Positions 14,803-64,000 of a stretch of DNA of 64,000 nt are shown here, one piece after another. A program made the position numbers and the translations under genes. Position 1 is the stretch's first letter, and the number at the start of each line of letters is the position of its first letter. The notes beneath the pieces were generated by a model that was not told the origin of the DNA, did not search any database, and saw only the letters and a program-made list of their open reading frames with translations. The DNA is from Cyanophora paradoxa CCMP329 (lineage: Eukaryota; Plantae; Glaucophyta): positions 1-64,000 of the forward strand of contig QPMI01000251.1 of the NCBI GenBank assembly GCA_004431415.1, given 5' to 3'.

Positions 14803-15059
14803 AGATACGTATACTCGACACCCCGTTACAGAAACGTGAGCTCAATCAATTGCAAGTCCGCTGCAGGTCCCGGCCGCTGCAAGTCCCGGCCCGGACCTGG
14901 AGTCCGGTCCTAGCTAGCGCTAGATAGGGTGCCAGCGCTGGTCATGGGGAACCCGCGCCTGGGATCTCCGCTGCAGGGCGGGCGGGGCGGGTCGGCGCCG
15001 GGGCTCAGCGGCTTGATCATGATGTTTTCAGGCTTTTAAATTTCAGCTGATCACAAGGT

Positions 15060-38600: not shown

Positions 38601-41600
38601 AGAGTGGGGCGCTGCCTGGGGAGACGAAGATCAACATTGGATCCCTGTCCTCCGGTGCGCTGCGCAGCCACGGGAGGACGTCAGTGGCGTTGCTGACGGA
38701 GAGACGGCCGCCCGCGCGCAGGCGACGTGGAGCCGGCGGACGAGGCGATCCTCGCGAAGCCGGCGACGGCGTTCTTCGTGGCGCACGGGACGACGACGAT
38801 GAAGTGGATCCAGCTCGCCAGCGGCGCCTCGACTCTCGGTCTCAAACAGGCGGTCGAGCGGGCGATGGGCCTCTCCGCGAACCGCAGGCGGCTGCGCATC
38901 GCGATGCCGGATGGCGAAGTTGTGCAGGCGTGCACCAGCTGCTCGCCGCCGTGCTTGGCGTTCAGTCACTCACGCCGTCCGCGCGCAGCCGTACTCGGCA
39001 GATGCGAAGGAGATACCGCTCGCGAAGACGCCCCTGAAACCGGGCAGCATCCTCACCGCCAAAGACCTCGGCGATTTCTACCTGCACTCCTGCCAATCTT
39101 CGTCGGGGCCGGTGTGGATCCACTGGGACCTTAACGGCCATCCGTCCGACGTCAAGGAGAAGCCGAAGCTCGCGTCCACGACGGTCGAGCTGTGGACGCA
39201 GGGCGCTGAGCGGAAGTGTGTCGGGGCGTGGAAGGTGCCGGCGAGAGAAGGCAACCTCGTGTTCGACAGGCTCATATTGCACTGGGGCACGATGAAGCCG
39301 TCCACCTCGTGCGTCGCGCATTGCACACCGGGCCGCGCCGTGATGCCTTCACGTCTGAACTGCGCCGGCGCTGACCGCGAGAACGCTCGTGCAGGTACGA
39401 CGTGCGGGTGTGGGGCATGCCGGAGGGCGACAAGGTGCCGGTGGTGGCGGATGGTTTGAAGGTGACGACTCGCGCCCTGAATGCAGGTGAGCCGCGGGCT
39501 TCCCGCTTTTGCGTCTGCGCCGGCCTTGCTGGCACGATAGTACGGTGATCTTCGATTGCGAGCACGCGGATGTTGAGCGTGCAATAGAGTGTGCAACGAG
39601 AAGCCCGCGTTCGCGAGCTGACTGGCTCTGGGCGCGCCCACAGGCGAAAAGCCGGCGTTGTTCGAGGCGCAGCCGGCGCAGCACTTCTACTACCGCCTGT
39701 CGACGCACTCGTCGCCGGTAACGGTGCAGCTGGCCGAGCTCGCGGGCGGCGGGTCGGTCGTCGATCTGTGGAACGCAATCAAGCGCCTGACGTACTACTC
39801 GCTGCCGGCCGCCGACAAGCCGCGGCTCGCGCTCGCGAGCGGCGAGGTCCTGAAGGTGCGCCGAGGCGCTGCGTTCCGCGTCCACGCCCGCCCAGTGTTG
39901 TGTGGCGCAGATGCACGAGAGGGACGGTGCGGCGGTGCCGCTGCAGTCGACCCCGGCTCAGGCGGGGGCGGTGCTGGAGGCGGGCGCGACGTGCTACATG
40001 AGCGTGTCGGCGAGCTACAGCACGCGGGGCAAGGCGGCGGAGGGCCGGGACGTGTACGTGTCGTGGGCGCTGAACGAGAAGTGGAAAGAGAAGGAGCCGC
40101 CTGTCTTCAACGAGATCTACGTGGAGCTGTGGGACGAGAGGACGCCCGAGCAGCGGGCGGAGTGGACGCTGCCGGCGAAGCATGGCGGGGTGGAGTTCAA
40201 CGCGCTGCAGATGTTCGGGCTGTTGCTGCGATCGCGTGTGACGTGAGCCCTGGCGATGTTGTGGCGCGGGCAGCTCGAGGGGGTCGCTGACGTGGGTGCA
40301 GGTACTGCTTGCGGGTGTGGGGACGGTACGAGAGTGGGGCGCTGCCTGGGGAGACGAAGATCAACATTGGATCCCTGTCCTCCGGTGCGCTGCGCAGCCA
40401 CGGGAGGGACGTCAGTGGCGTTGCTGACGGGAGAGACGGCCGCCCCGCGCGCAGGCGACGTGGAGCCGGCGGACGAGGCGATCCTCGCGAAGCCGGCGAC
40501 GGCGTTCTTCGTGGCGCACGGGACGACGACGATGAAGTGGATCCAGCTCGCCAGCGGCGCCTCGACTCTCGGTCTCAAACAGGCGGTCGAGCGGGCGATG
40601 GGCCTCTCCGCGAACCGCAGGCGGCTGCGCATCGCGATGCCGGATGGCGAAGTTGTGCAGGCGTGCACCAGCTGCTCGCCGCCGTGCTTGGCGTTCAGTC
40701 ACTCACGCCGTCCGCGCGCAGCCGTACTCGGCAGATGCGAAGGAGATACCGCTCGCGAAGACGCCCCTGAAACCGGGCAGCATCCTCACCGCCAAAGACC
40801 TCGGCGATTTCTACCTGCACTCCTGCCAATCTTCGTCGGGGCCGGTGTGGATCCACTGGGACCTTAACGGCCATCCGTCCGACGTCAAGGAGAAGCCGAA
40901 GCTCGCGTCCACGACGGTCGAGCTGTGGACGCAGGGCGCTGAGCGGAAGTGTGTCGGGGCGTGGAAGGTGCCGGCGAGAGAAGGCAACCTCGTGTTCGAC
41001 AGGCTCATATTGCACTGGGGCACGATGAAGCCGTCCACCTCGTGCGTCGCGCATTGCACACCGGGCCGCGCCGTGATGCCTTCACGTCTGAACTGCGCCG
41101 GCGCTGACCGCGAGAACGCTCGTGCAGGTACGACGTGCGGGTGTGGGGCATGCCGGAGGGCGACAAGGTGCCGGTGGTGGCGGATGGTTTGAAGGTGACG
41201 ACTCGCGCCCTGAATGCAGGTGAGCCGCGGGCTTCCCGCTTTTGCGTCTGCGCCGGCCTTGCTGGCACGATAGTACGGTGATCTTCGATTGCGAGCACGC
41301 GGATGTTGAGCGTGCAATAGAGTGTGCAACGAGAAGCCCGCGTTCGCGAGCTGACTGGCTCTGGGCGCGCCCGCAGGCGAAAAGCCGGCGTTGTTCGAGG
41401 CGCAGCCGGCGCAGCACTTCTACTACCGCCTGTCGACGCACTCGTCGCCGGTAACGGTGCAGCTGGCCGAGCTCGCGGGCGGCGGGTCGGTCGTCGATCT
41501 GTGGAACGCAATCAAGCGCCTGACGTACTACTCGCTGCCGGCCGCCGACAAGCCGCGGCTCGCGCTCGCGAGCGGCGAGGTCCTGAAGGTGCGCCGAGGC

Positions 41601-44600
41601 GCTGCGTTCCGCGTCCGCGCCTGCCCAGTGTCGTGTGGCACAGATGCACGAGAGGGACGGTGCGGCGGTGCCGCTGCAGTCGACCCCGGCTCAGGCGGGG
41701 GCGGTGCTGGAGGCGGGCGCGACGTGCTACATGAGCGTGTCGGCGAGCTACAGCACGCGGGGCAAGGCGGCGGAGGGCCGGGACGTGTACGTGTCGTGGG
41801 CGCTGAACGAGAAGTGGAAAGAGAAGGAGCCGCCTGTCTTCAACGAGATCTACGTGGAGCTGTGGGACGAGAGGACGCCCGAGCAGCGGGCGGAGTGGAC
41901 GCTGCCGGCGAAGCACGGCGGGGTGGAGTTCAACGCGCTGCAGATGTTCGGGCTGGTGCTGCGATCGCGTGTGACGTGAGCCCTGGCGATGTTGTGGCGC
42001 GGGCAGCTCGAGGGGGTCGCTGACGTGGGTGCAGGTACTGCTTGCGGGTGTGGGGACGGTACGAGAGTGGGGCGCTGCCTGGGGAGACGAAGATCAACAT
42101 TGGATCCCTGTCCTCCGGTGCGCTGCGCAGCCACGGGAGGGACGTCAGTGGCGTTGCTGACGGGAGGGACGGCCGCCCCGCGTGCAGGCGACGTGGAGCC
42201 GGCGGACGAGGCGATCCTCGCGAAGCCGGCGACGGCGTTCTTCGTGGCGCACGGGACGACGACGATGAAGTGGATCCAGCTCGCCAGCGGCGCCTCGACT
42301 CTCGGTCTCAAACAGGCGGTCGAGCGGGCGATGGGCCTCTCCGCGAACCGCAGGCGGCTGCGCATCGCGATGCCGGATGGCGAAGTTGTGCAGGCGTGCA
42401 CCAGCTGCTCGCCGCCGTGCTTGGCGTTCAGTCACTCACGCCGTCCGCGCGCAGCCGTACTCGGCAGATGCGAAGGAGATACCGCTCGCGAAGACGCCCC
42501 TGAAACCGGGCAGCATCCTCACCGCCAAAGACCTCGGCGATTTCTACCTGCACTCCTGCCAATCTTCGTCGGGGCCGGTGTGGATCCACTGGGACCTTAA
42601 CGGCCATCCGTCCGACGTCAAGGAGAAGCCGAAGCTCGCGTCCACGACGGTCGAGCTGTGGACGCAGGGCGCTGAGCGGAAGTGTGTCGGGGCGTGGAAG
42701 GTGCCGGCGAGAGAAGGCAACCTCGTGTTCGACAGGCTCATATTGCACTGGGCACGATGAAGCCGTCCACCTCGTGCGTCGCGCATTGCACACCGGGCCG
42801 CGCCGTGATGCCTTCACGTCTGAACTGCGCCGGCGCTGACCGCGAGAACGCTCGTGCAGGTACGACGTGCGGGTGTGGGGCATGCCGGAGGGCGACAAGG
42901 TGCCGGTGGTGGCGGATGGTTTGAAGGTGACGACTCGCGCCCTGAATGCAGGTGAGCCGCGGGCTTCCCGCTTTTGCGTCTGCGCCGGCCTTGCTGGCAC
43001 GATAGTACGGTGATCTTCGATTGCGAGCACGCGGATGTTGAGCGTGCAATAGAGTGTGCAACGAGAAGCCCGCGTTCGCGAGCTGACTGGCTCTGGGCGC
43101 GCCCGCAGGCGAAAAGCCGGCGTTGTTCGAGGCGCAGCCGGCGCAGCACTTCTACTACCGCCTGTCGACGCACTCGTCGCCGGTAACGGTGCAGCTGGCC
43201 GAGCTCGCGGGCGGCGGGTCGGTCGTCGATCTGTGGAACGCAATCAAGCGCCTGACGTACTACTCGCTGCCGGCCGCCGACAAGCCGCGGCTCGCGCTCG
43301 CGAGCGGCGAGGTCCTGAAGGTGCGCCGAGGCGCTGCGTTCCGCGTCCGCGCCCGCCCAGTGTCGTGTGGCGCAGATGCACGAGAGGGACGGTGCGGCGG
43401 TGCCGCTGCAGTCGACCCCGGCTCAGGCGGGGGCGGTGCTGGAGGCGGGCGCGACGTGCTACATGAGCGTGTCGGCGAGCTACAGCACGCGGGGCAAGGC
43501 GGCGGAGGGCCGGGACGTGTACGTGTCGTGGGCGCTGAACGAGAAGTGGAAAGAGAAGGAGCCGCCTGTCTTCAACGAGATCTACGTGGAGCTGTGGGAC
43601 GAGAGGACGCCCGAGCAGCGGGCGGAGTGGACGCTGCCGGCGAAGCACGGCGGGGTGGAGTTCAACGCGCTGCAGATGTTCGGGCTGGTGCTGCGATCGC
43701 GTGTGACGTGAGCCCTGGCGATGTTGTGGCGCGGGCAGCTCGAGGGGGTCGCTGACGTGGGTGCAGGTACTGCTTGCGGGTGTGGGGACGGTACGAGAGT
43801 GGGGCGCTGCCTGGGGAGACGAAGATCAACATTGGATCCCTGTCCTCCGGTGCGCTGCGCAGCCACGGGAGGGACGTCAGTGGCGTTGCTGACGGGAGAG
43901 ACGGCCGCCCCGCGCGCAGGCGACGTGGAGCCGGCGGACGAGGCGATCCTCGCGAAGCCGGCGACGGCGTTCTTCGTGGCGCACGGGACGACGACGATGA
44001 AGTGGATCCAGCTCGCCAGCGGCGCCTCGACTCTCGGTCTCAAACAGGCGGTCGAGCGGGCGATGGGCCTCTCCGCGAACCGCAGGCGGCTGCGCATCGC
44101 GATGCCGGATGGCGAAGTTGTGCAGGCGTGCACCAGCTGCTCGCCGCCGTGCTTGGCGTTCAGTCACTCACGCCGTCCGCGCGCAGCCGTACTCGGCAGA
44201 TGCGAAGGAGATACCGCTCGCGAAGACGCCCCTGAAACCGGGCAGCATCCTCACCGCCAAAGACCTCGGCGATTTCTACCTGCACTCCTGCCAATCTTCG
44301 TCGGGGCCGGTGTGGATCCACTGGGACCTTAACGGCCATCCGTCCGACGTCAAGGAGAAGCCGAAGCTCGCGTCCACGACGGTCGAGCTGTGGACGCAGG
44401 GCGCTGAGCGGAAGTGTGTCGGGGCGTGGAAGGTGCCGGCGAGAGAAGGCAACCTCGTGTTCGACAGGCTCATATTGCACTGGGGCACGATGAAGCCGTC
44501 CACCTCGTGCGTCGCGCATTGCACACCGGGCCGCGCCGTGATGCCTTCACGTCTGAACTGCGCCGGCGTTGACCGCGAGAACGCTCGTGCAGGTACGACG

Positions 44601-47600
44601 TGCGGGTGTGGGGCATGCCGGAGGGCGACAAGGTGCCGGTGGTGGCGGATGGTTTGAAGGTGACGACTCGCGCCCTGAATGCAGGTGAGCCGCGGGCTTC
44701 CCGCTTTTGCGTCTGCGCCGGCCTTGCTGGCACGATAGTACGGTGATCTTCGATTGCGTGCACGCGGATGTTGAGCGTGCAATAGAGTGTGCAACGAGAA
44801 GCCCGCGTTCGCGAGCTGACTGGCTCTGGGCGCGCCCGCAGGCGAAAAGCCGGCGTTGTTCGAGGCGCAGCCGGCGCAGCACTTCTACTACCGCCTGTCG
44901 ACGCACTCGTCGCCGGTAACGGTGCAGCTGGCCGAGCTCGCGGGCGGCGGGTCGGTCGTCGATCTGTGGAACGCAATCAAGCGCCTGACGTACTACTCGC
45001 TGCCGGCCGCCGACAAGCCGCGGCTCGCGCTCGCGAGCGGCGAGGTCCTGAAGGTGCGCCGAGGCGCTGCGTTCCGCGTCCACGCCCGCCCAGTGTTGTG
45101 TGGCGCAGATGCACGAGAGGGACGGTGCGGCGGTGCCGCTGCAGTCGACCCCGGCTCAGGCGGGGGCGGTGCTGGAGGCGGGCGCGACGTGCTACATGAG
45201 CGTGTCGGCGAGCTACAGCACGCGGGGCAAGGCGGCGGAGGGCCGGGACGTGTACGTGTCGTGGGCGCTGAACGAGAAGTGGAAAGAGAAGGAGCCGCCT
45301 GTCTTCAACGAGATCTACGTGGAGCTGTGGGACGAGAGGACGCCCGAGCAGCGGGCGGAGTGGACGCTGCCGGCGAAGCACGGCGGGTGGAGTTCAACGC
45401 GCTGCAGATGTTCGGGCTGGTGCTGCGATCGCGTGTGACGTGAGCCCTGGCGATGTTGTGGCGCGGGCAGCTCGAGGGGTCGCTGACGTGGGTGCAGGTA
45501 CTGCTTGCGGGTGTGGGGACGGTACGAGAGTGGGGCGCTGCCTGGGGAGACGAAGATCAACATTGGATCCCTGTCCTCCGGTGCGCTGCGCAGCCACGGG
45601 AGGGACGTCAGTGGCGTTGCTGACGGGAGAGACGGCCGCCCCGCGCGCAGGCGACGTGGAGCCGGCGGACGAGGCGATCCTCGCGAAGCCGGCGACGGCG
45701 TTCTTCGTGGCGCACGGGACGACGACGATGAAGTGGATCCAGCTCGCCAGCGGCGCCTCGACTCTCGGTCTCAAACAGGCGGTCGAGCGGGCGATGGGCC
45801 TCTCCGCGAACCGCAGGCGGCTGCGCATCGCGATGCCGGATGGCGAAGTTGTGCAGGCGTGCACCAGCTGCTCGCCGCCGTGCTTGGCGTTCAGTCACTC
45901 ACGCCGTCCGCGCGCAGCCGTACACGAAGGACGCGACGGAGATCCCGCTCGCCAAGACGCCCGCAAAGTCGGGCAGCATTCTCGTCGCGCGGGACCTCGG
46001 CGAGTACTACCTCAGCATCGGGACCAGCTACGAGGGCCCCGTGTATGTCTATTGGTCGCTCAACGGGCAGCCGTCCGACGCGAAGGCGAAGCCGAAGCTC
46101 GCGCACGTGATGGTCGAGCTGTGGACGCAGGGCGCAGAGAGCAAGCGTGTGGGGCTGTGGAAGGTGCCCGCGTCCGAGGGAAGCGTCGTGTTCAACCAGG
46201 TCGTGCTGCACTGGGGCACGATGAAGCCTTCTACGCAGTGCGCGCGGCAGTGCTGCGCGCTCGCGATTTCCATGCTGCATCTTCACCAGGGGATGCCTGA
46301 TCACTCTACGTGCCCGCGCAGGTACGGCGTGCGGGTGTGGACGATTCCGGAGCTGGAGGGCGAAACAGTGCCGCTGGTGTCGGACATCGTGGGCAAGAAG
46401 ACGCGCGCCCTAAACTCGGGTGAGTGCCGTGCAGCGGGCTATAGAAGCGCGTGCTCCATTCGTGAACTGCACGGTTCTCACGATGCGCTCTCGCCTCGCT
46501 CGTCCCCGCAGGAGAGACGCCCGCGCTTTTCAACTCGCAGCCCGACCTGCACCTCTTCTACCGGCGGACGGGTGACAGCTCGCCGGTGACGCTGCAGCTG
46601 GCCGAGATGGCAGAGGGCGCGACGGGTGTCGACCTCACTACCATGATCAAGCGCGTCTCCGTGTACTCGGTTCCAGAGGCTGCAAAGCAGCAGCTGTCTC
46701 TCGCAAGCGGCGACGCGATCAAGGTTCGTCGTATTCTACTCTCGATGCCGGATCGCCGATCGGTTTACTCGACGTGCAGATGTACGCGGCGGACGGCACG
46801 CCTGTGCAGCTCACGGCGTCGGGTGTCACTCGGGTGTGGTAGTGGCCATCGGCGGGAGTTTCTACATGAGCGCGTCAGCCGGTTTCAGCTCGCGAAGCAA
46901 AGCGGTGGAGGGGCGAGACGTGACGGTCTCATGGCCCTCTTGGGGAGGCGAAAGGATCAGGGCCGCCCGTCTTCCACGAGATGTACGTGGAGCTGTGGGA
47001 GGAGAAGACACCGGAGACGCGAGCCGAGTGGACGCTGCCTGCGAAGCACGGCGAGGTGCAGTTCAGCGCGCTGCAGATGTTCGGGCTGGTGCTGCGGTCA
47101 AGCACGACGTGAGCCGGGTCGATTGACGAAGCGCTGGAAGGCGATGGCTGATGCCGCTGCGCGGCACGCAGGTACTGCGTGCGAGTGTGGGGCCGGTACG
47201 AGCAGGGCTCGCTCACGGCGGAGACGAAGCTCTCCATCGGGTCCCTGTCGTCGGGTTCGTCCCTTGCCGTGCTGCTTTCGCATTCCGAGCGTATTGCCCG
47301 AAAGGCTGATCTCGTTGCGCAGGCGACGTGGAGCCGGCGGACGAGGCGATCCTCGCGAAGCCGGCGACGGCGTTCTTCGTGGCGCACGGGACGACGACGA
47401 TGAAGTGGATCCAGCTCGCCAGCGGCGCCTCGACTCTCGGTCTCAAACAGGCGGTCGAGCGGGCGATGGGCCTCTCCGCGAACCGCAGGCGGCTGCGCAT
47501 CGCGATGCCGGATGGCGAAGTTGTGCAGGCGTGCACCAGCTGCTCGCCGCCGTGCTTGGCGTTCAGTCACTCACGCCGTCCGCGCGCAGCCGTACTCGGC

Positions 47601-50600
47601 AGATGCGAAGGAGATACCGCTCGCGAAGACGCCCCTGAAACCGGGCAGCATCCTCACCGCCAAAGACCTCGGCGATTTCTACCTGCACTCCTGCCAATCT
47701 TCGTCGGGGCCGGTGTGGATCCACTGGGACCTTAACGGCCATCCGTCCGACGTCAAGGAGAAGCCGAAGCTCGCGTCCACGACGGTCGAGCTGTGGACGC
47801 AGGGCGCTGAGCGGAAGTGTGTCGGGGCGTGGAAGGTGCCGGCGAGAGAAGGCAACCTCGTGTTCGACAGGCTCATATTGCACTGGGGCACGATGAAGCC
47901 GTCCACCTCGTGCGTCGCGCATTGCACACCGGGCCGCGCCGTGATGCCTTCACGTCTGAACTGCGCCGGCGTTGACCGCGAGAACGCTCGTGCAGGTACG
48001 ACGTGCGGGTGTGGGGCATGCCGGAGGGCGACAAGGTGCCGGTGGTGGCGGATGGTTTGAAGGTGACGACTCGCGCCCTGAATGCAGGTGAGCCGCGGGC
48101 TTCCCGCTTTTGCGTCTGCGCCGGCCTTGCTGGCACGATAGTACGGTGATCTTCGATTGCGTGCACGCGGATGTTGAGCGTGCAATAGAGTGTGCAACGA
48201 GAAGCCCGCGTTCGCGAGCTGACTGGCTCTGGGCGCGCCCGCAGGCGAAAAGCCGGCGTTGTTCGAGGCGCAGCCGGCGCAGCACTTCTACTACCGCCTG
48301 TCGACGCACTCGTCGCCGGTAACGGTGCAGCTGGCCGAGCTCGCGGGCGGCGGGTCGGTCGTCGATCTGTGGAACGCAATCAAGCGCCTGACGTACTACT
48401 CGCTGCCGGCCGCCGACAAGCCGCGGCTCGCGCTCGCGAGCGGCGAGGTCCTGAAGGTGCGCCGAGGCGCTGCGTTCCGCGTCCGCGCCTGCCCAGTGTC
48501 GTGTGGCGCAGATGCACGAGAGGGACGGTGCGGCGGTGCCGCTGCAGTCGACCCCGGCTCAGGCGGGGGCGGTGCTGGAGGCGGGCGCGACGTGCTACAT
48601 GAGCGTGTCGGCGAGCTACAGCACGCGGGGCAAGGCGGCGGAGGGCCGGGACGTGTACGTGTCGTGGGCGCTGAACGAGAAGTGGAAAGAGAAGGAGCCG
48701 CCTGTCTTCAACGAGATCTACGTGGAGCTGTGGGACGAGAGGACGCCCGAGCAGCGGGCGGAGTGGACGCTGCCGGCGAAGCACGGCGGGGTGGAGTTCA
48801 ACGCGCTGCAGATGTTCGGGCTGGTGCTGCGATCGCGTGTGACGTGAGCCCTGGCGATGTTGTGGCGCGGGCAGCTCGAGGGGGTCGCTGACGTGGGTGC
48901 AGGTACTGCTTGCGGGTGTGGGGACGGTACGAGAGTGGGGCGCTGCCTGGGGAGACGAAGATCAACATTGGATCCCTGTCCTCCGGTGCGCTGCGCAGCC
49001 ACGGGAGGGACGTCAGTGGCGTTGCTGACGGGAGGGACTGCCGCCCCGCGCGCAGGCGACGTGGAGCCGGCGGACGAGGCGATCCTCGCGAAGCCGGCGA
49101 CGGCGTTCTTCGTGGCGCACGGGACGACGACGATGAAGTGGATCCAGCTCGCCAGCGGCGCCTCGACTCTCGGTCTCAAACAGGCGGTCGAGCGGGCGAT
49201 GGGCCTCTCCGCGAACCGCAGGCGGCTGCGCATCGCGATGCCGGATGGCGAAGTTGTGCAGGCGTGCATCAGCTGCTCGCCGCCGTGCTTGGCGTTCAGT
49301 CACTCACGCCGTCCGCGCGCAGCCGTACACGAAGGACGCGACGGAGATCCCGCTCGCCAAGACGCCCGCAAAGTCGGGCAGCATTCTCGTCGCGCGGGAC
49401 CTCGGCGAGTACTACCTCAGCGTCGGGACCAGCTACGAGGGCCCCGTGTATGTCTATTGGTCGCTCATCGGGCAGCCGTCCGACGCGAAGGCGAAGCCGA
49501 AGCTCGCGCACGTGATGGTCGAGCTGTGGACGCAGGGCGCAGAGAGCAAGCGTGTGGGGCTGTGGAAGGTGCCCGCGTCCGAGGGAAGCGTCGTGTTCAA
49601 CCAGGTCGTGCTGCACTGGGGCACGATGAAGCCTTCTACGCAGTGCGCGCGGCAGTGCTGCGCGCTCGCGATTTCCATGCTGCATCTTCACCAGGGGATG
49701 CCTGATCACTCTACGTGCCCGCGCAGGTACGGCGTGCGGGTGTGGACGATTCCGGAGCTGGAGGGCGAAACAGTGCCGCTGGTGTCGGACATCGTGGGCA
49801 AGAAGACGCGCGCCCTAAACTCGGGTGAGTGCCGTGCAGCGGGCTATAGAAGCGCGTGCTCCATTCGTGAACTGCACGGTTCTCACGATGCGCTCTCGCC
49901 TCGCTCGTCCCCGCAGGAGAGACGCCCGCGCTTTTCAACTCGCAGCCCGACCTGCACCTCTTCTACCGGCGGACGGGTGACAGCTCGCCGGTGACGCTGC
50001 AGCTGGCCGAGATGGCAGAGGGCGCGACGGGTGTCGACCTCACTACCATGATCAAGCGCGTCTCCGTGTACTCGGTTCCAGAGGCTGCAAAGCAGCAGCT
50101 GTCTCTCGCAAGCGGCGACGCGATCAAGGTTCGTCGTATTCTACTCTCGATGCCGGATCGCCGATCGGTTTACTCGACGTGCAGATGTACGCGGCGGACG
50201 GCACGCCTGTGCAGCTCACGGCGTCGGGTGTCACTCGGGGTGTGGTAGTGGCCATCGGCGGGAGTTTCTACATGAGCGCGTCAGCCGGTTTCAGCTCGCG
50301 AAGCAAAGCGGTGGAGGGGCGAGACGTGACGGTCTCATGGGCCCTCTTGGGGGAGGCGAAAGGATCAGGGCCGCCCGTCTTCCACGAGATGTACGTGGAG
50401 CTGTGGGAGGAGAAGACACCGGAGACGCGAGCCGAGTGGACGCTGCCTGCGAAGCACGGCGAGGTGCAGTTCAGCGCGCTGCAGATGTTCGGGCTGGTGC
50501 TGCGGTCAAGCACGACGTGAGCCGGGTCGATTGACGAAGCGCTGGAAGGCGATGGCTGATGCCGCTGCGCGGCACGCAGGTACTGCGTGCGAGTGTGGGG

Positions 50601-53600: not shown

Positions 53601-56600
53601 GGCACGCCTGTGCAGCTCACGGCGTCGGGTGTCACTCGGGTGTGGTAGTGGCCATCGGCGGGAGTTTCTACATGAGCGCGTCAGCCGGTTTCAGCTCGCG
53701 AAGCAAAGCGGTGGAGGGCGAGACGTGACGGTCTCATGGGCCCTCTTGGGGGAGGCGAAAGGATCAGGGCCGCCCGTCTTCCACGAGATGTACGTGGAGC
53801 TGTGGGAGGAGAAGACACCGGAGACGCGAGCCGAGTGGACGCTGCCTGCGAAGCACGGCGAGGTGCAGTTCAGCGCGCTGCAGATGTTCGGGCTGGTGCT
53901 GCGGTCAAGCACGACGTGAGCCGGGTCGATTGACGAAGCGCTGGAAGGCGATGGCTGATGCCGCTGCGCGGCACGCAGGTACTGCGTGCGAGTGTGGGGC
54001 CGGTACGAGCAGGGCTCGCTCACGGCGGAGACGAAGCTCTCCATCGGATCCCTGTCGTCGGGTTCGTCCCTTGCCGTGCTGCTTTCGCATTCCGAGCGTA
54101 TTGCCCGAAAGGCTGATCTCGTTGCGCAGGCGACGTGGAGCCGGCGGACGAGGCGATCCTCGCGAAGCCGGCGATGGCCTTCTTCGTGGCGCACGGGACG
54201 ACGACGATGAAGTGGATCCAGCTCGCCAGCGGCGCCTCGACTCTCGGTCTCAAACAGGCGGTCGAGCGGGCGATGGGCCTCTCCGCGAACCGCAGGCGGC
54301 TGCGCATCGCGATGCCGGATGGCGAAGTTGTGCAGGCGTGCACCAGCTGCTCGCCGCCGTGCTTGGCGTTCAGTCACTCACGCCGTCCGCGCGCAGCCGT
54401 ACTCGGCAGATGCGAAGGAGATACCGCTCGCGAAGACGCCCCTGAAACCGGGCAGCATCCTCACCGTCAAAGACCTCGGCGATTTCTATCTGCACTCCTG
54501 CCAATCTTCGTCGGGGCCGGTGTGGATCCACTGGGACCTTAACGGCCATCCGTCCGACGTCAAGGAGAAGCCGAAGCTCGCGTCCACGACGGTCGAGCTG
54601 TGGACGCAGGGCGCTGAGCGGAAGTGTGTCGGGGCGTGGAAGGTGCCGGCGAGAGAAGGCAACCTCGTGTTCGACAGGCTCATATTGCACTGGGGCACGA
54701 TGAAGCCGTCCACCTCGTACGTCGCGCGTTGCACGCCGGCCGCGCCGTGATGCCTTCACGTCTGAACTGCGCCGGCGTTGACCGCGAGAACGCTCGTGCA
54801 GGTACGACGTGCGGGTGTGGGGCATGCCGGAGGGCGACAAGGTGCCGGTGGTGGCGGATGGTTTGAAGGTGACGACTCGCGCCCTGAATGCAGGTGAGCC
54901 GCGGGCTTCCCGCTTTTGCGTCTGCGCCGGCCTTGCTGGCACGATAGTACGGTGATCTTCGATTGCGAGCACGCGGATGTTGAGCGTGCAATAGAGTGTG
55001 CAACGAGAAGCCCGCGTTCGCGAGCTGACTGGCTCTGGGCGCGCCCGCAGGCGAAAAGCCGGCGTTGTTCGAGGCGCAGCCGGCGCAGCACTTCTACTAC
55101 CGCCTGTCGACGCACTCGTCGCCGGTAACGGTGCAGCTGGCCGAGCTCGCGGGCGGCGGGTCGGTCGTCGATCTGTGGAACGCAATCAAGCGCCTGACGT
55201 ACTACTCGCTGCCGGCCGCCGACAAGCCGCGGCTCGCGCTCGCGAGCGGCGAGGTCCTGAAGGTGCGCCGAGGCGCTGCGTTCCGCGTCCGCGCCTGCCC
55301 AGTGTCGTGTGGCACAGATGCACGAGAGGGACGGTGCGGCGGTGCCGCTGCAGTCGACCCCGGCTCAGGCGGGGGCGGTGCTGGAGGCGGGCGCGACGTG
55401 CTACATGAGCGTGTCGGCGAGCTACAGCACGCGGGGCAAGGCGGCGGAGGGCCGGGACGTGTACGTGTCGTGGGCGCTGAACGAGAAGTGGAAAGAGAAG
55501 GAGCCGCCTGTCTTCAACGAGATCTACGTGGAGCTGTGGGACGAGAGGACGCCCGAGCAGCGGGCGGAGTGGACGCTGCCGGCGAAGCACGGCGGGGTGG
55601 AGTTCAACGCGCTGCAGATGTTCGGGCTGGTGCTGCGATCGCGTGTGACGTGAGCCCTGGCGATGTTGTGGCGCGGGCAGCTCGAGGGGGTCGCTGACGT
55701 GGGTGCAGGTACTGCTTGCGGGTGTGGGGACGGTACGAGAGTGGGGCGCTGCCTGGGGAGACGAAGATCAACATTGGATCCCTGTCCTCCGGTGCGCTGC
55801 GCAGCCACGGGAGGGACGTCAGTGGCGTTGCTGACGGCAGGGACGGCCGCCCCGCGCGCAGGCGACGTGGAGCCGGCGGACGAGGCGATCCTCGCGAAGC
55901 CGGCGACGGCGTTCTTCGTGGCGCACGGGACGACGACGATGAAGTGGATCCAGCTCGCCAGCGGCGCCTCGACTCTCGGTCTCAAACAGGCGGTCGAGCG
56001 GGCGATGGGCCTCTCCGCGAACCGCAGGCGGCTGCGCATCGCGATGCCGGATGGCGAAGTTGTGCAGGCGTGCACCAGCTGCTCGCCGCCGTGCTTGGCG
56101 TTCAGTCACTCACGCCGTCCGCGCGCAGCCGTACACGAAGGACGCGACGGAGATCCCGCTCGCCAAGACGCCCGCAAAGTCGGGCAGCATTCTCGTCGCG
56201 CGGGACCTCGGCGAGTACTACCTCAGCGTCGGGACCAGCTACGAGGGCCCCGTGTATGTCTATTGGTCGCTCAACGGGCAGCCGTCCGACGCGAAGGCGA
56301 AGCCGAAGCTCGCGCACGTGATGGTCGAGCTGTGGACGCAGGGCGCAGAGAGCAAGCGTGTGGGGCTGTGGAAGGTGCCCGCGTCCGAGGGAAGCGTCGT
56401 TTTCAACCAGGTCGTGCTGCACTGGGGCACGATGAAGCCTTCTACGCAGTGCGCGCGGCAGTGCTGCGCGCTCGCGATTTCCATGCTGCATCTTCACCAG
56501 GGGATGCCTGATCACTCTACGTGCCCGCGCAGGTACGGCGTGCGGGTGTGGACGATTCCGGAGCTGGAGGGCGAAACAGTGCCGCTGGTGTCGGACATCG

Positions 56601-59600
56601 TGGGCAAGAAGACGCGCGCCCTAAACTCGGGTGAGTGCCGTGCAGCGGGCTATAGAAGCGCGTGCTCCATTCGTGAACTGCACGGTTCTCACGATGCGCT
56701 CTCGCCTCGCTCGTCCCCGCAGGAGAGACGCCCGCGCTTTTCAACTCGCAGCCCGACCTGCACCTCTTCTACCGGCGGACGGGTGACAGCTCGCCGGTGA
56801 CGCTGCAGCTGGCCGAGATGGCAGAGGGCGCGACGGGTGTCGACCTCACTACCATGATCAAGCGCGTCTCCGTGTACTCGGTTCCAGAGGCTGCAAAGCA
56901 GCAGCTGTCTCTCGCAAGCGGCGACGCGATCAAGGTTCGTCGTATTCTACTCTCGATGCCGGATCGCCGATCGGTTTACTCGACGTGCAGATGTACGCGG
57001 CGGACGGCACGCCTGTGCAGCTCACGGCGTCGGGTGTCACTCGGGGTGTGGTAGTGGCCATCGGCGGGAGTTTCTACATGAGCGCGTCAGCCGGTTTCAG
57101 CTCGCGAAGCAAAGCGGTGGAGGGGCGAGACGTGACGGTCTCATGGGCCCTCTTGGGGGAGGCGAAAGGATCAGGGCCGCCCGTCTTCCACGAGATGTAC
57201 GTGGAGCTGTGGGAGGAGAAGACACCGGAGACGCGAGCCGAGTGGACGCTGCCTGCGAAGCACGGCGAGGTGCAGTTCAGCGCGCTGCAGATGTTCGGGC
57301 TGGTGCTGCGGTCAAGCACGACGTGAGCCGGGTCGATTGACGAAGCGCTGGAAGGCGATGGCTGATGCCGCTGCGCGGCACGCAGGTACTGCGTGCGAGT
57401 GTGGGGCCGGTACGAGCAGGGCTCGCTCACGGCGGAGACGAAGCTCTCCATCGGGTCCCTGTCGTCGGGTTCGTCCCTTGCCGTGCTGCTTTCGCATTCC
57501 GAGCGTATTGCCCGAAAGGCTGATCTCGTTGCGCAGGCGACGTGGAGCCGGCGGACGAGGCGATCCTCGCGAAGCCGGCGATGGCCTTCTTCGTGGCGCA
57601 CGGGACGACGACGATGAAGTGGATCCAGCTCGCCAGCGGCGCCTCGACTCTCGGTCTCAAACAGGCGGTCGAGCGGGCGATGGGCCTCTCCGCGAACCGC
57701 AGGCGGCTGCGCATCGCGATGCCGGATGGCGAAGTTGTGCAGGCGTGCACCAGCTGCTCGCCGCCGTGCTTGGCGTTCAGTCACTCACGCCGTCCGCGCG
57801 CAGCCGTACTCGGCAGATGCGAAGGAGATACCGCTCGCGAAGACGCCCCTGAAACCGGGCAGCATCCTCACCGTCAAAGACCTCGGCGATTTCTATCTGC
57901 ACTCCTGCCAATCTTCGTCGGGCCGGTGTGGATCCACTGGGACCTTAACGGCCATCCGTCCGACGTCAAGGAGAAGCCGAAGCTCGCGTCCACGACGGTC
58001 GAGCTGTGGACGCAGGGCGCTGAGCGGAAGTGTGTCGGGGCGTGGAAGGTGCCGGCGAGAGAAGGCAACCTCGTGTTCGACAGGCTCATATTGCACTGGG
58101 GCACGATGAAGCCGTCCACCTCGTACGTCGCGCGTTGCACGCCGGGCCGCGCCGTGATGCCTTCACGTCTGAACTGCGCCGGCGTTGACCGCGAGAACGC
58201 TCGTGCAGGTACGACGTGCGGGTGTGGGGCATGCCGGAGGGCGACAAGGTGCCGGTGGTGGCGGATGGTTTGAAGGTGACGACTCGCGCCCTGAATGCAG
58301 GTGAGCCGCGGGCTTCCCGCTTTTGCGTCTGCGCCGGCCTTGCTGGCACGATAGTACGGTGATCTTCGATTGCGAGCACGCGGATGTTGAGCGTGCAATA
58401 GAGTGTGCAACGAGAAGCCCGCGTTCGCGAGCTGACTGGCTCTGGGCGCGCCCGCAGGCGAAAAGCCGGCGTTGTTCGAGGCGCAGCCGGCGCAGCACTT
58501 CTACTACCGCCTGTCGACGCACTCGTCGCCGGTAACGGTGCAGCTGGCCGAGCTCGCGGGCGGCGGGTCGGTCGTCGATCTGTGGAACGCAATCAAGCGC
58601 CTGACGTACTACTCGCTGCCGGCCGCCGACAAGCCGCGGCTCGCGCTCGCGAGCGGCGAGGTCCTGAAGGTGCGCCGAGGCGCTGCGTTCCGCGTCCGCG
58701 CCTGCCCAGTGTCGTGTGGCACAGATGCACGAGAGGGACGGTGCGGCGGTGCCGCTGCAGTCGACCCCGGCTCAGGCGGGGGCGGTGCTGGAGGCGGGCG
58801 CGACGTGCTACATGAGCGTGTCGGCGAGCTACAGCACGCGGGGCAAGGCGGCGGAGGGCCGGGACGTGTACGTGTCGTGGGCGCTGAACGAGAAGTGGAA
58901 AGAGAAGGAGCCGCCTGTCTTCAACGAGATCTACGTGGAGCTGTGGGACGAGAGGACGCCCGAGCAGCGGGCGGAGTGGACGCTGCCGGCGAAGCACGGC
59001 GGGGTGGAGTTCAACGCGCTGCAGATGTTCGGGCTGGTGCTGCGATCGCGTGTGACGTGAGCCCTGGCGATGTTGTGGCGCGGGCAGCTCGAGGGGGTCG
59101 CTGACGTGGGTGCAGGTACTGCTTGCGGGTGTGGGGACGGTACGAGAGTGGGGCGCTGCCTGGGGAGACGAAGATCAACATTGGATCCCTGTCCTCCGGT
59201 GCGCTGCGCAGCCACGGGAGGGACGTCAGTGGCGTTGCTGACGGGAGGGACGGCCGCCCCGCGCGCAGGCGACGTGGAGCCGGCGGACGAGGCGATCCTC
59301 GCGAAGCCGGCGACGGCGTTCTTCGTGGCGCACGGGACGACGACGATGAAGTGGATCCAGCTCGCCAGCGGCGCCTCGACTCTCGGTCTCAAACAGGCGG
59401 TCGAGCGGGCGATGGGCCTCTCCGCGAACCGCAGGCGGCTGCGCATCGCGATGCCGGATGGCGAAGTTGTGCAGGCGTGCACCAGCTGCTCGCCGCCGTG
59501 CTTGGCGTTCAGTCACTCACGCCGTCCGCGCGCAGCCGTACACGAAGGACGCGACGGAGATCCCGCTCGCCAAGACGCCCGCAAAGTCGGGCAGCATTCT

Positions 59601-62600
59601 CGTCGCGCGGGACCTCGGCGAGTACTACCTCAGCGTCGGGACCAGCTACGAGGGCCCCGTGTATGTCTATTGGTCGCTCAACGGGCAGCCGTCCGACGCG
59701 AAGGCGAAGCCGAAGCTCGCGCACGTGATGGTCGAGCTGTGGACGCAGGGCGCAGAGAGCAAGCGTGTGGGGCTGTGGAAGGTGCCCGCGTCCGAGGGAA
59801 GCGTCGTGTTCAACCAGGTCGTGCTGCACTGGGGCACGATGAAGCCTTCTACGCAGTGCGCGCGGCAGTGCTGCGCGCTCGCGATTTCCATGCTGCATCT
59901 TCACCAGGGGATGCCTGATCACTCTACGTGCCCGCGCAGGTACGGCGTGCGGGTGTGGACGATTCCGGAGCTGGAGGGCGAAACAGTGCCGCTGGTGTCG
60001 GACATCGTGGGCAAGAAGACGCGCGCCCTAAACTCGGGTGAGTGCCGTGCAGCGGGCTATAGAAGCGCGTGCTCCATTCGTGAACTGCACGGTTCTCACG
60101 ATGCGCTCTCGCCTCGCTCGTCCCCGCAGGAGAGACGCCCGCGCTTTTCAACTCGCAGCCCGACCTGCACCTCTTCTACCGGCGGACGGGTGACAGCTCG
60201 CCGGTGACGCTGCAGCTGGCCGAGATGGCAGAGGGCGCGACGGGTGTCGACCTCACTACCATGATCAAGCGCGTCTCCGTGTACTCGGTTCCAGAGGCTG
60301 CAAAGCAGCAGCTGTCTCTCGCAAGCGGCGACGCGATCAAGGTTCGTCGTATTCTACTCTCGATGCCGGATCGCCGATCGGTTTACTCGACGTGCAGATG
60401 TACGCGGCGGACGGCACGCCTGTGCAGCTCACGGCGTCGGGTGTCACTCGGGGTGTGGTAGTGGCCATCGGCGGGAGTTTCTACATGAGCGCGTCAGCCG
60501 GTTTCAGCTCGCGAAGCAAAGCGGTGGAGGGGCGAGACGTGACGGTCTCATGGGCCCTCTTGGGGGAGGCGAAAGGATCAGGGCCGCCCGTCTTCCACGA
60601 GATGTACGTGGAGCTGTGGGAGGAGAAGACACCGGAGACGCGAGCCGAGTGGACGCTGCCTGCGAAGCACGGCGAGGTGCAGTTCAGCGCGCTGCAGATG
60701 TTCGGGCTGGTGCTGCGGTCAAGCACGACGTGAGCCGGGTCGATTGACGAAGCGCTGGAAGGCGATGGCTGATGCCGCTGCGCGGCACGCAGGTACTGCT
60801 TGCGAGTGTGGGGCCGGTACGAGCAGGGCTCGCTCACGGCGGAGACGAAGCTCTCCATCGGGTCCCTGTCGTCGGGTTCGTCCCTTGCCGTGCTGCTTTC
60901 GCATTCCGAGCGTATTGCCCGAAAGGCTGATCTCGTTGCGCAGGCGACGTGGAGCCGGCGGACGAGGCGATCCTCGCGAAGCCGGCGACGGCGTTCTTCG
61001 TGGCGCACGGGACGACGACGATGAAGTGGATCCAGCTCGCCAGCGGCGCCTCGACTCTCGGTCTCAAACAGGCGGTCGAGCGGGCGATGGGCCTCTCCGC
61101 GAACCGCAGGCGGCTGCGCATCGCGATGCCGGATGGCGAAGTTGTGCAGGCGTGCACCAGCTGCTCGCCGCCGTGCTTGGCGTTCAGTCACTCACGCCGT
61201 CCGCGCGCAGCCGTACACGAAGGACGCGACGGAGATCCCGCTCGCCAAGACGCCCGCAAAGTCGGGCAGCATTCTCGTCGCGCGGGACCTCGGCGAGTAC
61301 TACCTCAGCGTCGGGACCAGCTACGAGGGCCCCGTGTATGTCTATTGGTCGCTCAACGGGCAGCCGTCCGACGCGAAGGCGAAGCCGAAGCTCGCGCACG
61401 TGATGGTCGAGCTGTGGACGCAGGGCGCAGAGAGCAAGCGTGTGGGGCTGTGGAAGGTGCCCGCGTCCGAGGGAAGCGTCGTGTTCAACCAGGTCGTGCT
61501 GCACTGGGGCACGATGAAGCCTTCTACGCAGTGCGCGCGGCAGTGCTGCGCGCTCGCGATTTCCATGCTGCATCTTCACCAGGGATGCCTGATCACTCTA
61601 CGTGCCCGCGCAGGTACGGCGTGCGGGTGTGGACGATTCCGGAGCTGGAGGGCGAAACAGTGCCGCTGGTGTCGGACATCGTGGGCAAGAAGACGCGCGC
61701 CCTAAACTCGGGTGAGTGCCGTGCAGCGGGCTATAGAAGCGCGTGCTCCATTCGTGAACTGCACGGTTCTCACGATGCGCTCTCGCCTCGCTCGTCCCCG
61801 CAGGAGAGACGCCCGCGCTTTTCAACTCGCAGCCGACCTGCACCTCTTCTACCGGCGGACGGGTGACAGCTCGCCGGTGACGCTGCAGCTGGCCGAGATG
61901 GCAGAGGGCGCGACGGGTGTCGACCTCACTACCATGATCAAGCGCGTCTCCGTGTACTCGGTTCCAGAGGCTGCAAAGCAGCAGCTGTCTCTCGCAAGCG
62001 GCGACGCGATCAAGGTTCGTCGTATTCTACTCTCGATGCCGGATCGCCGATCGGTTTACTCGACGTGCAGATGTACGCGGCGGACGGCACGCCTGTGCAG
62101 CTCACGGCGTCGGGTGTCACTCGGGTGTGGTAGTGGCCATCGGCGGGAGTTTCTACATGAGCGCGTCAGCCGGTTTCAGCTCGCGAAGCAAAGCGGTGGA
62201 GGGGCGAGACGTGACGGTCTCATGGGCCCTCTTGGGGGAGGCGAAAGGATCAGGGCCGCCCGTCTTCCACGAGATGTACGTGGAGCTGTGGGAGGAGAAG
62301 ACACCGGAGACGCGAGCCGAGTGGACGCTGCCTGCGAAGCACGGCGAGGTGCAGTTCAGCGCGCTGCAGATGTTCGGGCTGGTGCTGCGGTCAAGCACGA
62401 CGTGAGCCGGGTCGATTGACGAAGCGCTGGAAGGCGATGGCTGATGCCGCTGCGCGGCACGCAGGTACTGCTTGCGAGTGTGGGGCCGGTACGAGCAGGG
62501 CTCGCTCACGGCGGAGACGAAGCTCTCCATCGGGTCCCTGTCGTCGGGTTCGTCCCTTGCCGTGCTGCTTTCGCATTCCGAGCGTATTGCCCGAAAGGCT

Positions 62601-64000
62601 GATCTCGTTGCGCAGGCGACGTGGAGCCGGCGGACGAGGCGATCCTCGCGAAGCCGGCGACGGCGTTCTTCGTGGCGCACGGGACGACGACGATGAAGTG
62701 GATCCAGCTCGCCAGCGGCGCCTCGACTCTCGGTCTCAAACAGGCGGTCGAGCGGGCGATGGGCCTCTCCGCGAACCGCAGGCGGCTGCGCATCGCGATG
62801 CCGGATGGCGAAGTTGTGCAGGCGTGCACCAGCTGCTCGCCGCCGTGCTTGGCGTTCAGTCACTCACGCCGTCCGCGCGCAGCCGTACACGAAGGACGCG
62901 ACGGAGATCCCGCTCGCCAAGACGCCCGCAAAGTCGGGCAGCATTCTCGTCGCGCGGGACCTCGGCGAGTACTACCTCAGCGTCGGGACCAGCTACGAGG
63001 GCCCCGTGTATGTCTATTGGTCGCTCAACGGGCAGCCGTCCGACGCGAAGGCGAAGCCGAAGCTCGCGCACGTGATGGTCGAGCTGTGGACGCAGGGCGC
63101 AGAGAGCAAGCGTGTGGGCTGTGGAAGGTGCCCGCGTCCGAGGGAAGCGTCGTGTTCAACCAGGTCGTGCTGCACTGGGGCACGATGAAGCTTCTACGCA
63201 GTGCGCGCGGCAGTGCTGCGCGCTCGCGATTTCCATGCTGCATCTTCACCAGGGGATGCCTGATCACTCTACGTGCCCGCGCAGGTACGGCGTGCGGGTG
63301 TGGACGATTCCGGAGCTGGAGGGCGAAACAGTGCCGCTGGTGTCGGACATCGTGGGCAAGAAGACGCGCGCCCTAAACTCGGGTGAGTGCCGTGCAGCGG
63401 GCTATAGAAGCGCGTGCTCCATTCGTGAACTGCACGGTTCTCACGATGCGCTCTCGCCTCGCTCGTCCCCGCAGGAGAGACGCCCGCGCTTTTCAACTCG
63501 CAGCCCAACCTGCACCTCTTCTACCGGCGGACGGGTGACAGCTCGCCGGTGACGCTGCAGCTGGCCGAGATGGCAGAGGGCGCGACGGGTGTCGACCTCA
63601 CTACCATGATCAAGCGCGTCTCCGTGTACTCGGTTCCAGAGGCTGCAAAGCAGCAGCTGTCTCTCGCAAGCGGCGACGCGATCAAGGTTCGTCGTATTCT
63701 ACTCTCGATGCCGGATCGCCGATCGGTTTACTCGACGTGCAGATGTACGCGGCGGACGGCACGCCTGTGCAGCTCACGGCGTCGGGTGTCACTCGGGTGT
63801 GGTAGTGGCCATCGGCGGGAGTTTCTACATGAGCGCGTCAGCCGGTTTCAGCTCGCGAAGCAAAGCGGTGGAGGGGCGAGACGTGACGGTCTCATGGGCC
63901 CTCTTGGGGGAGGCGAAAGGATCAGGGCCGCCCGTCTTCCACGAGATGTACGTGGAGCTGTGGGAGGAGAAGACACCGGAGACGCGAGCCGAGTGGACGC
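28241..64000 (+). CDS. Giant multi-exon protein, 3'-truncated by the window: MLKL-like 4HB / beta-helix / helical insert / beta-helix / acidic coil / filamin-like Ig / Ala-rich linker / (FN3-like-Ubl)n array
   Basis: ATG at 28241. Exons 28241-28272, 28365-28465, 29326-29438 and 29489 onward join in frame via GT-AG and GC-AG introns. The junctions checked from the filamin exon (ending ~35613) through the linker (36138-37577) into the repeat array are also in frame, and no stop remains between modules after splicing. Not every junction in 29.7-35.2 kb was verified. Confidence 0.65.
28466..29325 (+). other. 860-bp C/pyrimidine-rich intron (intron 2 of the giant gene)
   Basis: GTGCGG donor at 28466 and GCAG acceptor ending 29325 keep the frame (Q-G-M). 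It contains multiple poly-C runs. Confidence 0.7.
29957..34110 (+). other. Right-handed parallel beta-helix (PbH1) region, split by an alpha-helical insert at about 31570-33040
   Basis: The pectin-lyase-like cap reads VNTAGDLRALL...CLEAGNYEL....LRVRRPLSIEG. Repeats include LRVDSGCLFLDSCDI, AFVRQCQVIGQSRGGIDV, LVVDNLVSNNG, INRNIIRENRSNGIY, FRENRIQANAKSGVGV and IAACTIFDNKG. Confidence 0.7.
35243..35613 (+). other. Filamin/ABP280-type Ig-like domain exon
   Basis: SELRLGVLLRDADG...IGPIRVHIRLGERPLLGSPITI matches the filamin repeat pattern (V.L.D..G ... G...V.V.+G..+.GSP). Confidence 0.55.
36209..37068 (+). repeat. Coding tandem repeat, ~3.2 x 267 bp (89 aa; Ala/Ser/Gly-rich)
   Basis: AASAARDGDASGPAAAVPTDASAPTPAAASGSGSAAGEAARN... 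recurs at about 36209, 36476, 36743 and 37010 within the open frame 36177-37727. Confidence 0.9.
37373..64000 (+). repeat. Tandem array of 16 or more intron-containing coding modules (type A ~1733 bp, type B ~1675 bp), each ~415 aa FN3-like/Ubl/FN3-like/Ubl
   Basis: Module starts: A' 37373, A 38989, A 40722, A 42455, A 44187, B 45918, A 47590, B 49323, A 50998, B 52726, A 54397, B 56129, A 57804, B 59536, B 61211, B 62883. Each module has six introns at equivalent positions. Confidence 0.95.

What the first reader, a model, noticed from the sequence alone, without database searches (positions are those of the whole stretch)
38989..64000. Two divergent module types share one near-invariant exon+intron 'adapter', giving an A/B order AAAAA-BABABABA-BBB
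A and B modules differ throughout five exons, and five of their introns are unalignable by eye. Yet both end in the same ~267-bp cassette (e.g. 40455-40721: exon DVEPADEA...DGEVVQ plus a 61-nt intron), which is nearly identical in all 15 copies. Every A/B switch falls at this cassette. Inference: the cassette is the homology block for unequal crossover or gene conversion, so modules can be swapped in any order while frame is preserved. Because Ubl-2 spans the junction, it is built from a constant N-part and a variable C-part (PYSADAK..KDLG or PYTKDAT..RDLG). This resembles the repeat shuffling seen in fungal NLR sensor domains.
Basis: partly seen in the sequence, partly recalled or inferred. 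Interest (0 to 1): 0.78.

Follow-up and report, generated by a model that had tools for sequence, protein, structure and literature searches.

The report
Shared exon mixes giant gene's modules
In a giant spliced gene, likely of the alga Cyanophora paradoxa, two long-diverged 1.7-kb repeat units share one identical exon and intron that likely lets recombination mix them in different orders; this is a striking case of ordinary repeat homogenisation, with no sign so far of a dedicated diversity generator.

Summary
The order is AAAAA-BABABABA-BBB. A and B (62% amino-acid identity, five unalignable introns) are identical only over a 273-nt exon+intron block; the next-longest identical run is 30 nt. 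RNA contigs splice 10 of 11 introns tested, and short-read depth (about 9 A, 8 B, 15-19 blocks) fits the assembled copy number. The 'adapter' reading is only partly right. A database protein from Cyanophora paradoxa, likely the same gene's 3' part, has further types (C, D, E). C and D share a second cassette, and A, B and C (and, at protein level, D) share only its first 105 nt. B has a C-like body with A's cassette half. Recombination also occurs inside bodies. The nine switches need as few as two independent events. Best reading: a passive recombination hub at the most conserved exon of a roughly 14,000-residue (inferred) chain of FN3-like and ubiquitin-like domains, then unequal exchange. 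No diversifying selection (dN/dS about 0.5), no NLR parts found, and variation between strains is untested.

The parts
28366..36137 (+). Run of short exons upstream, probably the N-terminal part of the same gene (beta-helix-like stretches, a helical region, an acidic/Ala-rich linker, a beta-rich domain)
   Evidence: read from the three-frame translation; inferred, no RNA laid here; no Pfam family reached its cut-off
36138..37576 (+). Long exon: Ala/Ser/Gly-rich linker running in frame into the first, partial A module
   Evidence: open frame 36138-37727; translation; borders inferred from AG/GT
36208..37069 (+). 267-bp (89-codon) tandem repeat, 3.2 copies, in the linker
37401..38988 (+). Module M0: A type, lacking the first 144 nt of exon 1, so the array edge lies mid-exon
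38989..45917 (+). Four full A modules (1731-1733 nt; six exons of 320, 92, 212, 332, 83, 206 nt)
45918..59535 (+). (BA)4 higher-order dimer run, period about 3.4 kb
59536..64000 (+). B modules (1672-1675 nt; exons of 320, 98, 212, 332, 83, 206 nt); the third is cut by the window end
40449..40721 (+). 273-nt A=B identity block (example copy): splice acceptor, exon 6 (40455-40660) and intron 6. Exon 6 starts at 38722, 40455, 42188, 43920, 45651, 47323, 49056, 50731, 52459, 54130, 55862, 57537, 59269, 60944, 62616
38716..38820 (+). 105-nt core of the cassette (example copy), also shared with the module types outside the window
   Evidence: one contig at 23-30 times single-copy depth against 15-19 times for the rest of the cassette; loose end at 38828 reading the other cassette; protein identity 94-100% across A-D
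40661..40721 (+). 61-nt GC-AG intron of the cassette (example copy)
   Evidence: RNA contigs starting at 49125 are 143 nt, DNA contigs 204 nt, a difference of 61; no joint listed, so inferred from lengths
50494..50724 (+). 3' end of the B body (intron 4, exon 5, intron 5; example copy), shared at DNA level with extra copies outside the window
   Evidence: depth 1.4-1.9 times that of the B middle in 4 of 4 DNA runs; B and C proteins 95-100% identical over residues 281-380

Best explanation
The array is part of one giant spliced gene whose units of predicted FN3-like and ubiquitin-like domains are likely kept alike and re-ordered by ordinary unequal exchange and gene conversion, with exon 6 likely acting as a passive recombination hub. 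Shown: A and B are identical only over 273 nt; the units are spliced; further types share the first 105 nt. Inferred steps: (1) An ancient three-exon unit duplicated into the six-exon module, and modules diverged into types A, B, C, D and E. (2) The first half of exon 6 stayed the most conserved stretch, so it kept seeding exchange and was homogenised across types. (3) One conversion or crossover placed A's exon-6 3' half and intron in front of a C-like body, creating B; a parallel event did the same for C and D. (4) With 273 nt of perfect homology, against 30 nt or less elsewhere, an out-of-type exchange in the block made a B-to-A junction. (5) In-type misalignments inside bodies then amplified A, the BA dimer and B. 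The product would be a roughly 12,000-14,000-residue, probably intracellular, titin-like beaded scaffold, in which module order matters less than length.
For: Identity plateau and its improbability. Half-modules are homologous (24-27%, E 2e-18 and 2e-11) with the same intron phases. B vs C: 75-96% in exons 1-5 but 56% in the 3' half of exon 6, where B equals A. C vs D: 58-75% in exons 1-4 but 93-96% in exon 5 and 100% in the 3' half of exon 6. The core is 84-91% identical even to the terminal E module. Loose contig ends in the laid runs read exactly P0001's other cassettes. Recombination inside bodies: 20 of 66 A and 2 of 6 B SNP pairs are incompatible, there is a C/E chimera, and the array edge lies mid-exon. 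A longest alternating run of 10 has P about 0.011 under random order, as dimer amplification predicts. Minimal efficient processing segment is given as about 250 bp for yeast and mammals (PMC1904282, passages). RNA depth per estimated copy rises A < B < C < E in 2 of 2 RNA runs, as expected for one long transcript with 3' bias. No transmembrane-like stretch in P0001 or in the upstream frames.
Against: The same pattern (cassette shared by two diverged bodies) arose twice, and both ends of the A/B block lie within 6 nt of a splice acceptor; this is tidier than a passive process must give, though tracts stopping at unalignable introns would produce it. No DNA for C and D was available, so their tract ends are known only from protein and depth. 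That P0001 continues this gene is inferred, not bridged. SNP incompatibility could partly reflect mixed-copy consensus errors in the assembly or recurrent CpG change. The same paper gives a much shorter processing segment for Trypanosoma brucei (31-100 bp); the value for this alga is unknown. The fold model is poor (mean pLDDT 42). The scaffold function is inference only.
Confidence: 0.7

Rival explanations
1. The cassette is a selected adapter of a diversity-generating system: modules are binding or decoy units (for example for viral factors), and their order and number are shuffled between lineages, as in fungal HNWD or brown-algal ROCO repeats.
For: Two independent cassette-sharing pairs and a universal core; block ends at splice acceptors and frame is preserved; the gene is transcribed and spliced; five diverged module types.
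Against: dN/dS 0.51 over exons 1-5 (0.28-0.77 by exon), with dS likely underestimated at GC3 0.9. Copies within a type are nearly identical, so shuffling yields few new surfaces. Four DNA runs show the same variant letters and A/B depth ratios of 0.89-1.19. No nucleotide-binding or known sensor domain found. No special fold in the core (z -0.26).
Confidence: 0.16
2. The units and the cassette are real, but the A/B order is partly an assembly product, since any path through the shared block is allowed.
For: Only contigs were available, and no listed piece spans the block with both flanks. The window carries many single-base losses in G/C runs, showing imperfect consensus. Some shared SNPs of the window (48162, 49039, 49269, 49468) are not seen as the contig letter.
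Against: Depth-based copy numbers in X1 (A 9.1-9.3, B 7.8, block 15.1) match the window (9, 7+, 15). Copies carry position-specific SNP patterns, some confirmed in contigs (48490/48500; 47660/47682). The variant of the three most 3' A copies makes up 5.2 of 8 depth in one RNA run, in line with 3' bias. A 273-nt block is short for long reads.
Confidence: 0.1
3. The cassette is identical because purifying selection on the protein and on splicing of the GC-AG intron forbids change, with no recombination role.
For: The first half of exon 6 is the best conserved part, even in the terminal module; the intron has a rare GC donor.
Against: Zero synonymous differences over about 53 sites (P about 2e-12) and an identical intron; the 3' half tolerates 44% amino-acid change between the two cassette types.
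Confidence: 0.03

Closest known systems
Schistosoma mansoni SmPoMuc mucin genes (PMC2576457, passages read)
   Same: Genomic repeats of exon plus flanking intron are homogenised; two repeat types (r1, r2) occur intermingled, attributed to ectopic recombination, unequal crossover and conversion.
   Different: There the introns are alike and the short exons differ slightly. Here whole six-exon, 415-residue bodies differ (62% identity, unalignable introns) and only one exon+intron is shared. SmPoMuc polymorphism between individuals is documented; here it is untested.
Human LPA KIV-2 array with subtypes A, B, C (PMC6314250 and PMC11462820, passages read)
   Same: Intragenic multi-exon tandem array with distinct subtypes in one array; KIV-2B has the same exon sequence as the flanking KIV-3 unit, much as B here resembles C.
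   Different: KIV-2 subtypes differ by about 120 bases in 5.6 kb and are synonymous, so most of the unit is shared. Here the ratio is inverted: 16% of the unit is shared and the rest is deeply diverged.
Podospora HNWD (het-d/het-e) WD40 arrays (PMC2873952, passages read)
   Same: Concerted evolution, conversion and unequal crossover re-order repeat units inside one gene.
   Different: HNWD units are near-identical except for four positively selected positions and sit in non-self recognition proteins (NACHT domain recalled, not read). Here there is no sign of positive selection and no nucleotide-binding domain was found.
Ectocarpus ROCO-LRR and NB-ARC-TPR exon shuffling (PMC3341825, passages read)
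   Same: Repeat units coincide with exon sets and are shuffled within an algal gene.
   Different: One short repeat per exon, diversifying selection, spare exons in introns and a GTPase or NB-ARC domain; none of these was seen here.
Titin-type Ig/FN3 super-repeat giant proteins (architecture recalled; top Foldseek hit is a titin FnIII tandem)
   Same: Very long chain of beta-sandwich domains in hierarchical repeats (monomer, dimer, higher order).
   Different: Strict alternation with predicted ubiquitin-like domains, near-identical recent copies, and no sequence homologue outside this lineage in the searches run.

Membership tests
Intragenic tandem array under concerted evolution with subtypes (SmPoMuc/LPA kind) | Exon+intron units near-identical within a type, including introns | tested here: met
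Intragenic tandem array under concerted evolution with subtypes (SmPoMuc/LPA kind) | Subtypes intermingled, with signs of recombination between copies | tested here: met
   order; four-gamete failures 20 of 66 and 2 of 6; C/E chimera
Intragenic tandem array under concerted evolution with subtypes (SmPoMuc/LPA kind) | Copy number or order varies between individuals or strains | tested here: inconclusive
   4 of 20 holder runs laid with a single-copy anchor: A 8.7-11.1, block 15-19; within the noise of one 391-nt anchor; contigs only
Fungal NLR/HNWD or brown-algal ROCO/NB-ARC shuffled sensors | WD40, TPR, ANK or LRR sensor repeats | tested here: not met
   no such Pfam family in 8 array stretches or P0001; the predicted fold is beta-sandwich plus beta-grasp-like
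Fungal NLR/HNWD or brown-algal ROCO/NB-ARC shuffled sensors | NACHT, NB-ARC or Roc-COR nucleotide-binding domain | tested here: inconclusive
   none in 15 upstream open stretches or P0001; one Walker-A-like word in the low-complexity linker; the 5' end of the gene is not fixed and short exons can be missed
Fungal NLR/HNWD or brown-algal ROCO/NB-ARC shuffled sensors | Positive selection on variable repeat positions | tested here: inconclusive
   pairwise dN/dS 0.51 for A vs B gives no sign of it, but a pairwise test cannot detect single selected sites
Fibronectin type III-like domain | Seven-stranded beta-sandwich matching FN3 structures | tested here: inconclusive
   model residues 1-110 are all-beta, pLDDT about 40-67; best VIA Z 7.4, rmsd 2.5 over 92 residues to integrin beta4 FnIII, below the Z 8 guide; Foldseek rows dominated by FN3; no Pfam fn3 hit
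Ubiquitin-like (beta-grasp) domain | Profile match and strand-strand-helix-strand order | tested here: met
   Ubiquitin_2 at 52.3 bits (cut-off 23.1) for the whole of P0001, though no single stretch passes alone; E-E-H-E order in the low-confidence model; atlas leads at 0.85-0.86
Polyubiquitin-type precursor | Units ending in a di-glycine cleavage motif | tested here: not met
   one RGG word in the whole of P0001's 3,359 residues, so none recurring per unit

The most novel reading that the evidence does not exclude
Exon 6 is a maintained recombination adapter. It lets five deeply diverged FN3/ubiquitin-like module types be strung in strain-specific orders in a 1.5-MDa intracellular sensor or decoy protein of a glaucophyte alga. 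This would be a module-level shuffling system in which the constant element is an exon+intron and the variable element a six-exon cassette, the inverse of known repeat-shuffling receptors.
Probability: 0.16. Interest if true: 0.8.

Novelty: new variant of a known kind. Interest (0 to 1): 0.48.

Why it matters
It is an unusually clean natural record of how one conserved exon can let deeply diverged multi-exon modules interleave in a gene, twice in parallel, with nested homogenisation tracts that can be mapped to the base. It makes testable whether such hubs are passive by-products of conservation or selected adapters. It also points to a titin-scale protein of alternating FN3-like and ubiquitin-like domains in a model glaucophyte; three literature searches found no description of it, and the one database model found covers only its likely 3' part.

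Tried and rejected
No whole genome is held, so the sequence beyond 64000 could not be read. Word-index protein searches found nothing for exon 1 among longer proteins, only P0001 itself at near length and nothing among shorter proteins. Of the 4 profile hits, P0003 (a long bacterial-type surface protein by its look) and P0004 (a mollusc lectin) were set aside as weak or compositional. Pfam gave no family for 8 single stretches. Sequence searches of solved structures gave nothing under E 0.3. Atlas hits were at most 0.90, leads only. Alignment A3 misplaced short exons and was replaced by A4 before folding. The ubiquitin-like parts of the model were not matched in fold searches, which only shows the model's low confidence there. 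No RNA holder is on record as RNA in the run list; X15 and X17 were treated as RNA because they show intron joints absent from the DNA runs. A hairpin signal at the core was not found (z -0.26); the intron-spanning window gave z -2.5 among 12 windows tested with a crude shuffle, which I do not count. A Thr-to-Met variant in the core occurs in B, C and D copies, but it is a CpG change and may be recurrent, so it is not used as proof of exchange. In one search my donor pattern missed 3 of 15 modules (M8, M10, M12); their state was read from the alignment. Pseudogene reading rejected: 6 of 12 parsed modules have open frames, the single-base losses sit in G/C runs, and contigs restore 7 of 7 in M0 (majority evidence only). 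The scan's own index held nothing near this place or similar in sequence.
Full report
Observation. Self-comparison shows a tandem array from about 37,400 to the window end. Fifteen module starts and fifteen cassettes give, with a partial first unit, the order AAAAA-BABABABA-BBB. The A and B consensus sequences are identical over 273 nt (40449-40721), and the next-longest identical run is 30 nt. Eleven of 15 cassettes equal the consensus, and four carry one or two substitutions. Over exons 1-5, A and B share 62% of residues, with 0.40 differences per synonymous site; exon 6 has none, which has a probability near 2e-12. Introns 1-5 align no better than shuffles (z -0.9 to 2.1), against z 15 for intron 6.

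Gene structure and expression. Each module has six exons, and 6 of 12 parsed modules translate without a stop (415 residues for A, 417 for B). The others carry single-base losses in G/C runs, and short-read contigs of four DNA runs restore 7 of 7 such losses in the first module (majority evidence). Two runs show joints for 10 of the 11 introns in 47590-50730, absent from the two DNA runs laid beside them. The eleventh, a GC-AG intron in the cassette, is supported by RNA contigs exactly 61 nt shorter than the DNA contigs from the same start. The module is itself an old duplication of a three-exon unit: the halves align at 24-27% and intron phases repeat 2,1,0. So the cassette exon is the paralogue of exon 3.

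Copy number. Relative to a 391-nt single-copy contig, depth gives A 8.7-11.1, B 7.8-10.3 and the cassette 15-19 copies in 4 of 4 DNA runs laid. Run X1 gives 9, 8 and 15, matching the window. The tool warns that contig depth is no copy number, and the anchor is short, so the spread is not read as strain variation. No raw reads were available, so the order itself was not bridged.

What lies beyond the window. A profile search of 1.84 billion representatives returned 4 proteins. The best, P0001 (3,359 residues), is labelled as a Cyanophora paradoxa gene model, agreeing with earlier scan notes on this genome. It begins mid-module and holds three C, three D and one C/E module before a degenerate end. 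Loose contig ends in the laid runs read its cassettes letter for letter in translation. It is likely the 3' part of the same gene: the window ends in mid-module, and RNA depth per estimated copy rises A < B < C < E in both RNA runs. This link is inferred. With about 7-9 C copies by depth, the protein would reach roughly 12,000-14,000 residues.

The cassette is a nested hub, not one adapter. The first 105 nt of the block has 23-30 times single-copy depth and then branches, and its peptide is 94-100% identical across A, B, C and D and 84-91% to E. The 3' half comes in two versions, 56% identical: one shared by A and B, one by C and D. B's body is 75-96% identical to C by exon but only 55-78% to A, so B is a C-like body carrying A's cassette half. 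D likewise carries C's exon 5-6 region on a more distant body. B's last two introns and exon 5 are shared with extra copies at DNA level. Exchange also happens elsewhere: 20 of 66 informative SNP pairs among A copies and 2 of 6 among B copies are incompatible with a tree, the last P0001 module is identical to C for most of its first 181 residues and then drops to about 60%, and the array begins at nucleotide 145 of exon 1.

Mechanism. The best reading (0.7) is ordinary unequal exchange and conversion, probably between sister chromatids, since the published genome paper considers the species more likely haploid (PMC6704402, passages). The most conserved stretch seeds exchange between types; one event extended A/B identity to 273 nt, near the roughly 250-bp efficient segment given for yeast and mammals (PMC1904282, passages; shorter in T. 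brucei; unknown here). The nine switches need only an A-to-B junction and one out-of-type exchange in the block; dimer amplification explains the alternating run (P about 0.011 under random order). Against this reading: the pattern arose twice, and both block ends sit within 6 nt of splice acceptors. A selected shuffling system gets 0.16, a partly artefactual order 0.10, and pure constraint 0.03.

Protein. A fold of one C-type module-length stretch was poor (mean pLDDT 42). Its better part is an all-beta domain that matches FN3 structures at modest scores (Z 7.4, rmsd 2.5 over 92 residues; Foldseek best E 8e-5). Pfam Ubiquitin_2 passes its cut-off for the whole of P0001, with the best stretch crossing the exon 6/exon 1 junction. 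No transmembrane-like stretch, no recurring di-glycine end and no convincing P-loop were found. I infer an intracellular, titin-like beaded scaffold; this is untested.

Comparison with known systems. It works like SmPoMuc (PMC2576457) and LPA KIV-2 (PMC6314250, PMC11462820) arrays, all read as passages, with the proportions inverted: a small shared block and large diverged bodies. Concerted evolution of domain repeats is described as rare but known (PMC5100051, passages). It is not shown to be a member of the HNWD or ROCO/NB-ARC sensor kind (PMC2873952, PMC3341825, passages): sensor repeats are absent, and pairwise dN/dS is 0.51. Searches for a description of this gene found none (open-licence library only; supplements of the genome paper were not read and may list the gene models).

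Verdict. A real and well-supported feature; a new variant of a known kind. Interest 0.48, rising to about 0.8 if strain-specific orders and selected sites are found.

Noticed in passing
window 1534-4647 and 11666-14810 (partial copy 6652-8089): A 3.1-kb, about 87% GC element present twice at 96% identity, with a shorter third copy; one frame has a sub-threshold ARM_TANGO6 match.
   Followed up: no
window 4916-6302 and 17066-18466: A pair of 83% identical segments on the minus strand with Mug135-like C-terminal domain matches (E 9e-9 and 7e-4).
   Followed up: no
window 9018-9664, 11016-11376, 15688-15817: Lower-GC tandem repeats of 158 bp x4, 189 bp x1.9 and 65 bp x2 inside an otherwise GC-rich region.
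   Followed up: no
window 22045-22188 and 22349-22525: Two imperfect palindromes in a GC-rich stretch.
   Followed up: no
window 28500-29320: A long C/T-rich, poly-C stretch, probably a large intron near the 5' part of the giant gene.
   Followed up: no
P0001 residues 1143-2696: The three D modules carry a 101-residue basic-then-acidic insertion at the start of exon 1, inside the ubiquitin-like domain that spans the junction.
   Followed up: partly
P0002 and P0005 (Logan contigs): Fragments of a related module, 64-69% identical to B, whose translation runs through the intron after the cassette; a further paralogue or an orthologue in another species.
   Followed up: partly
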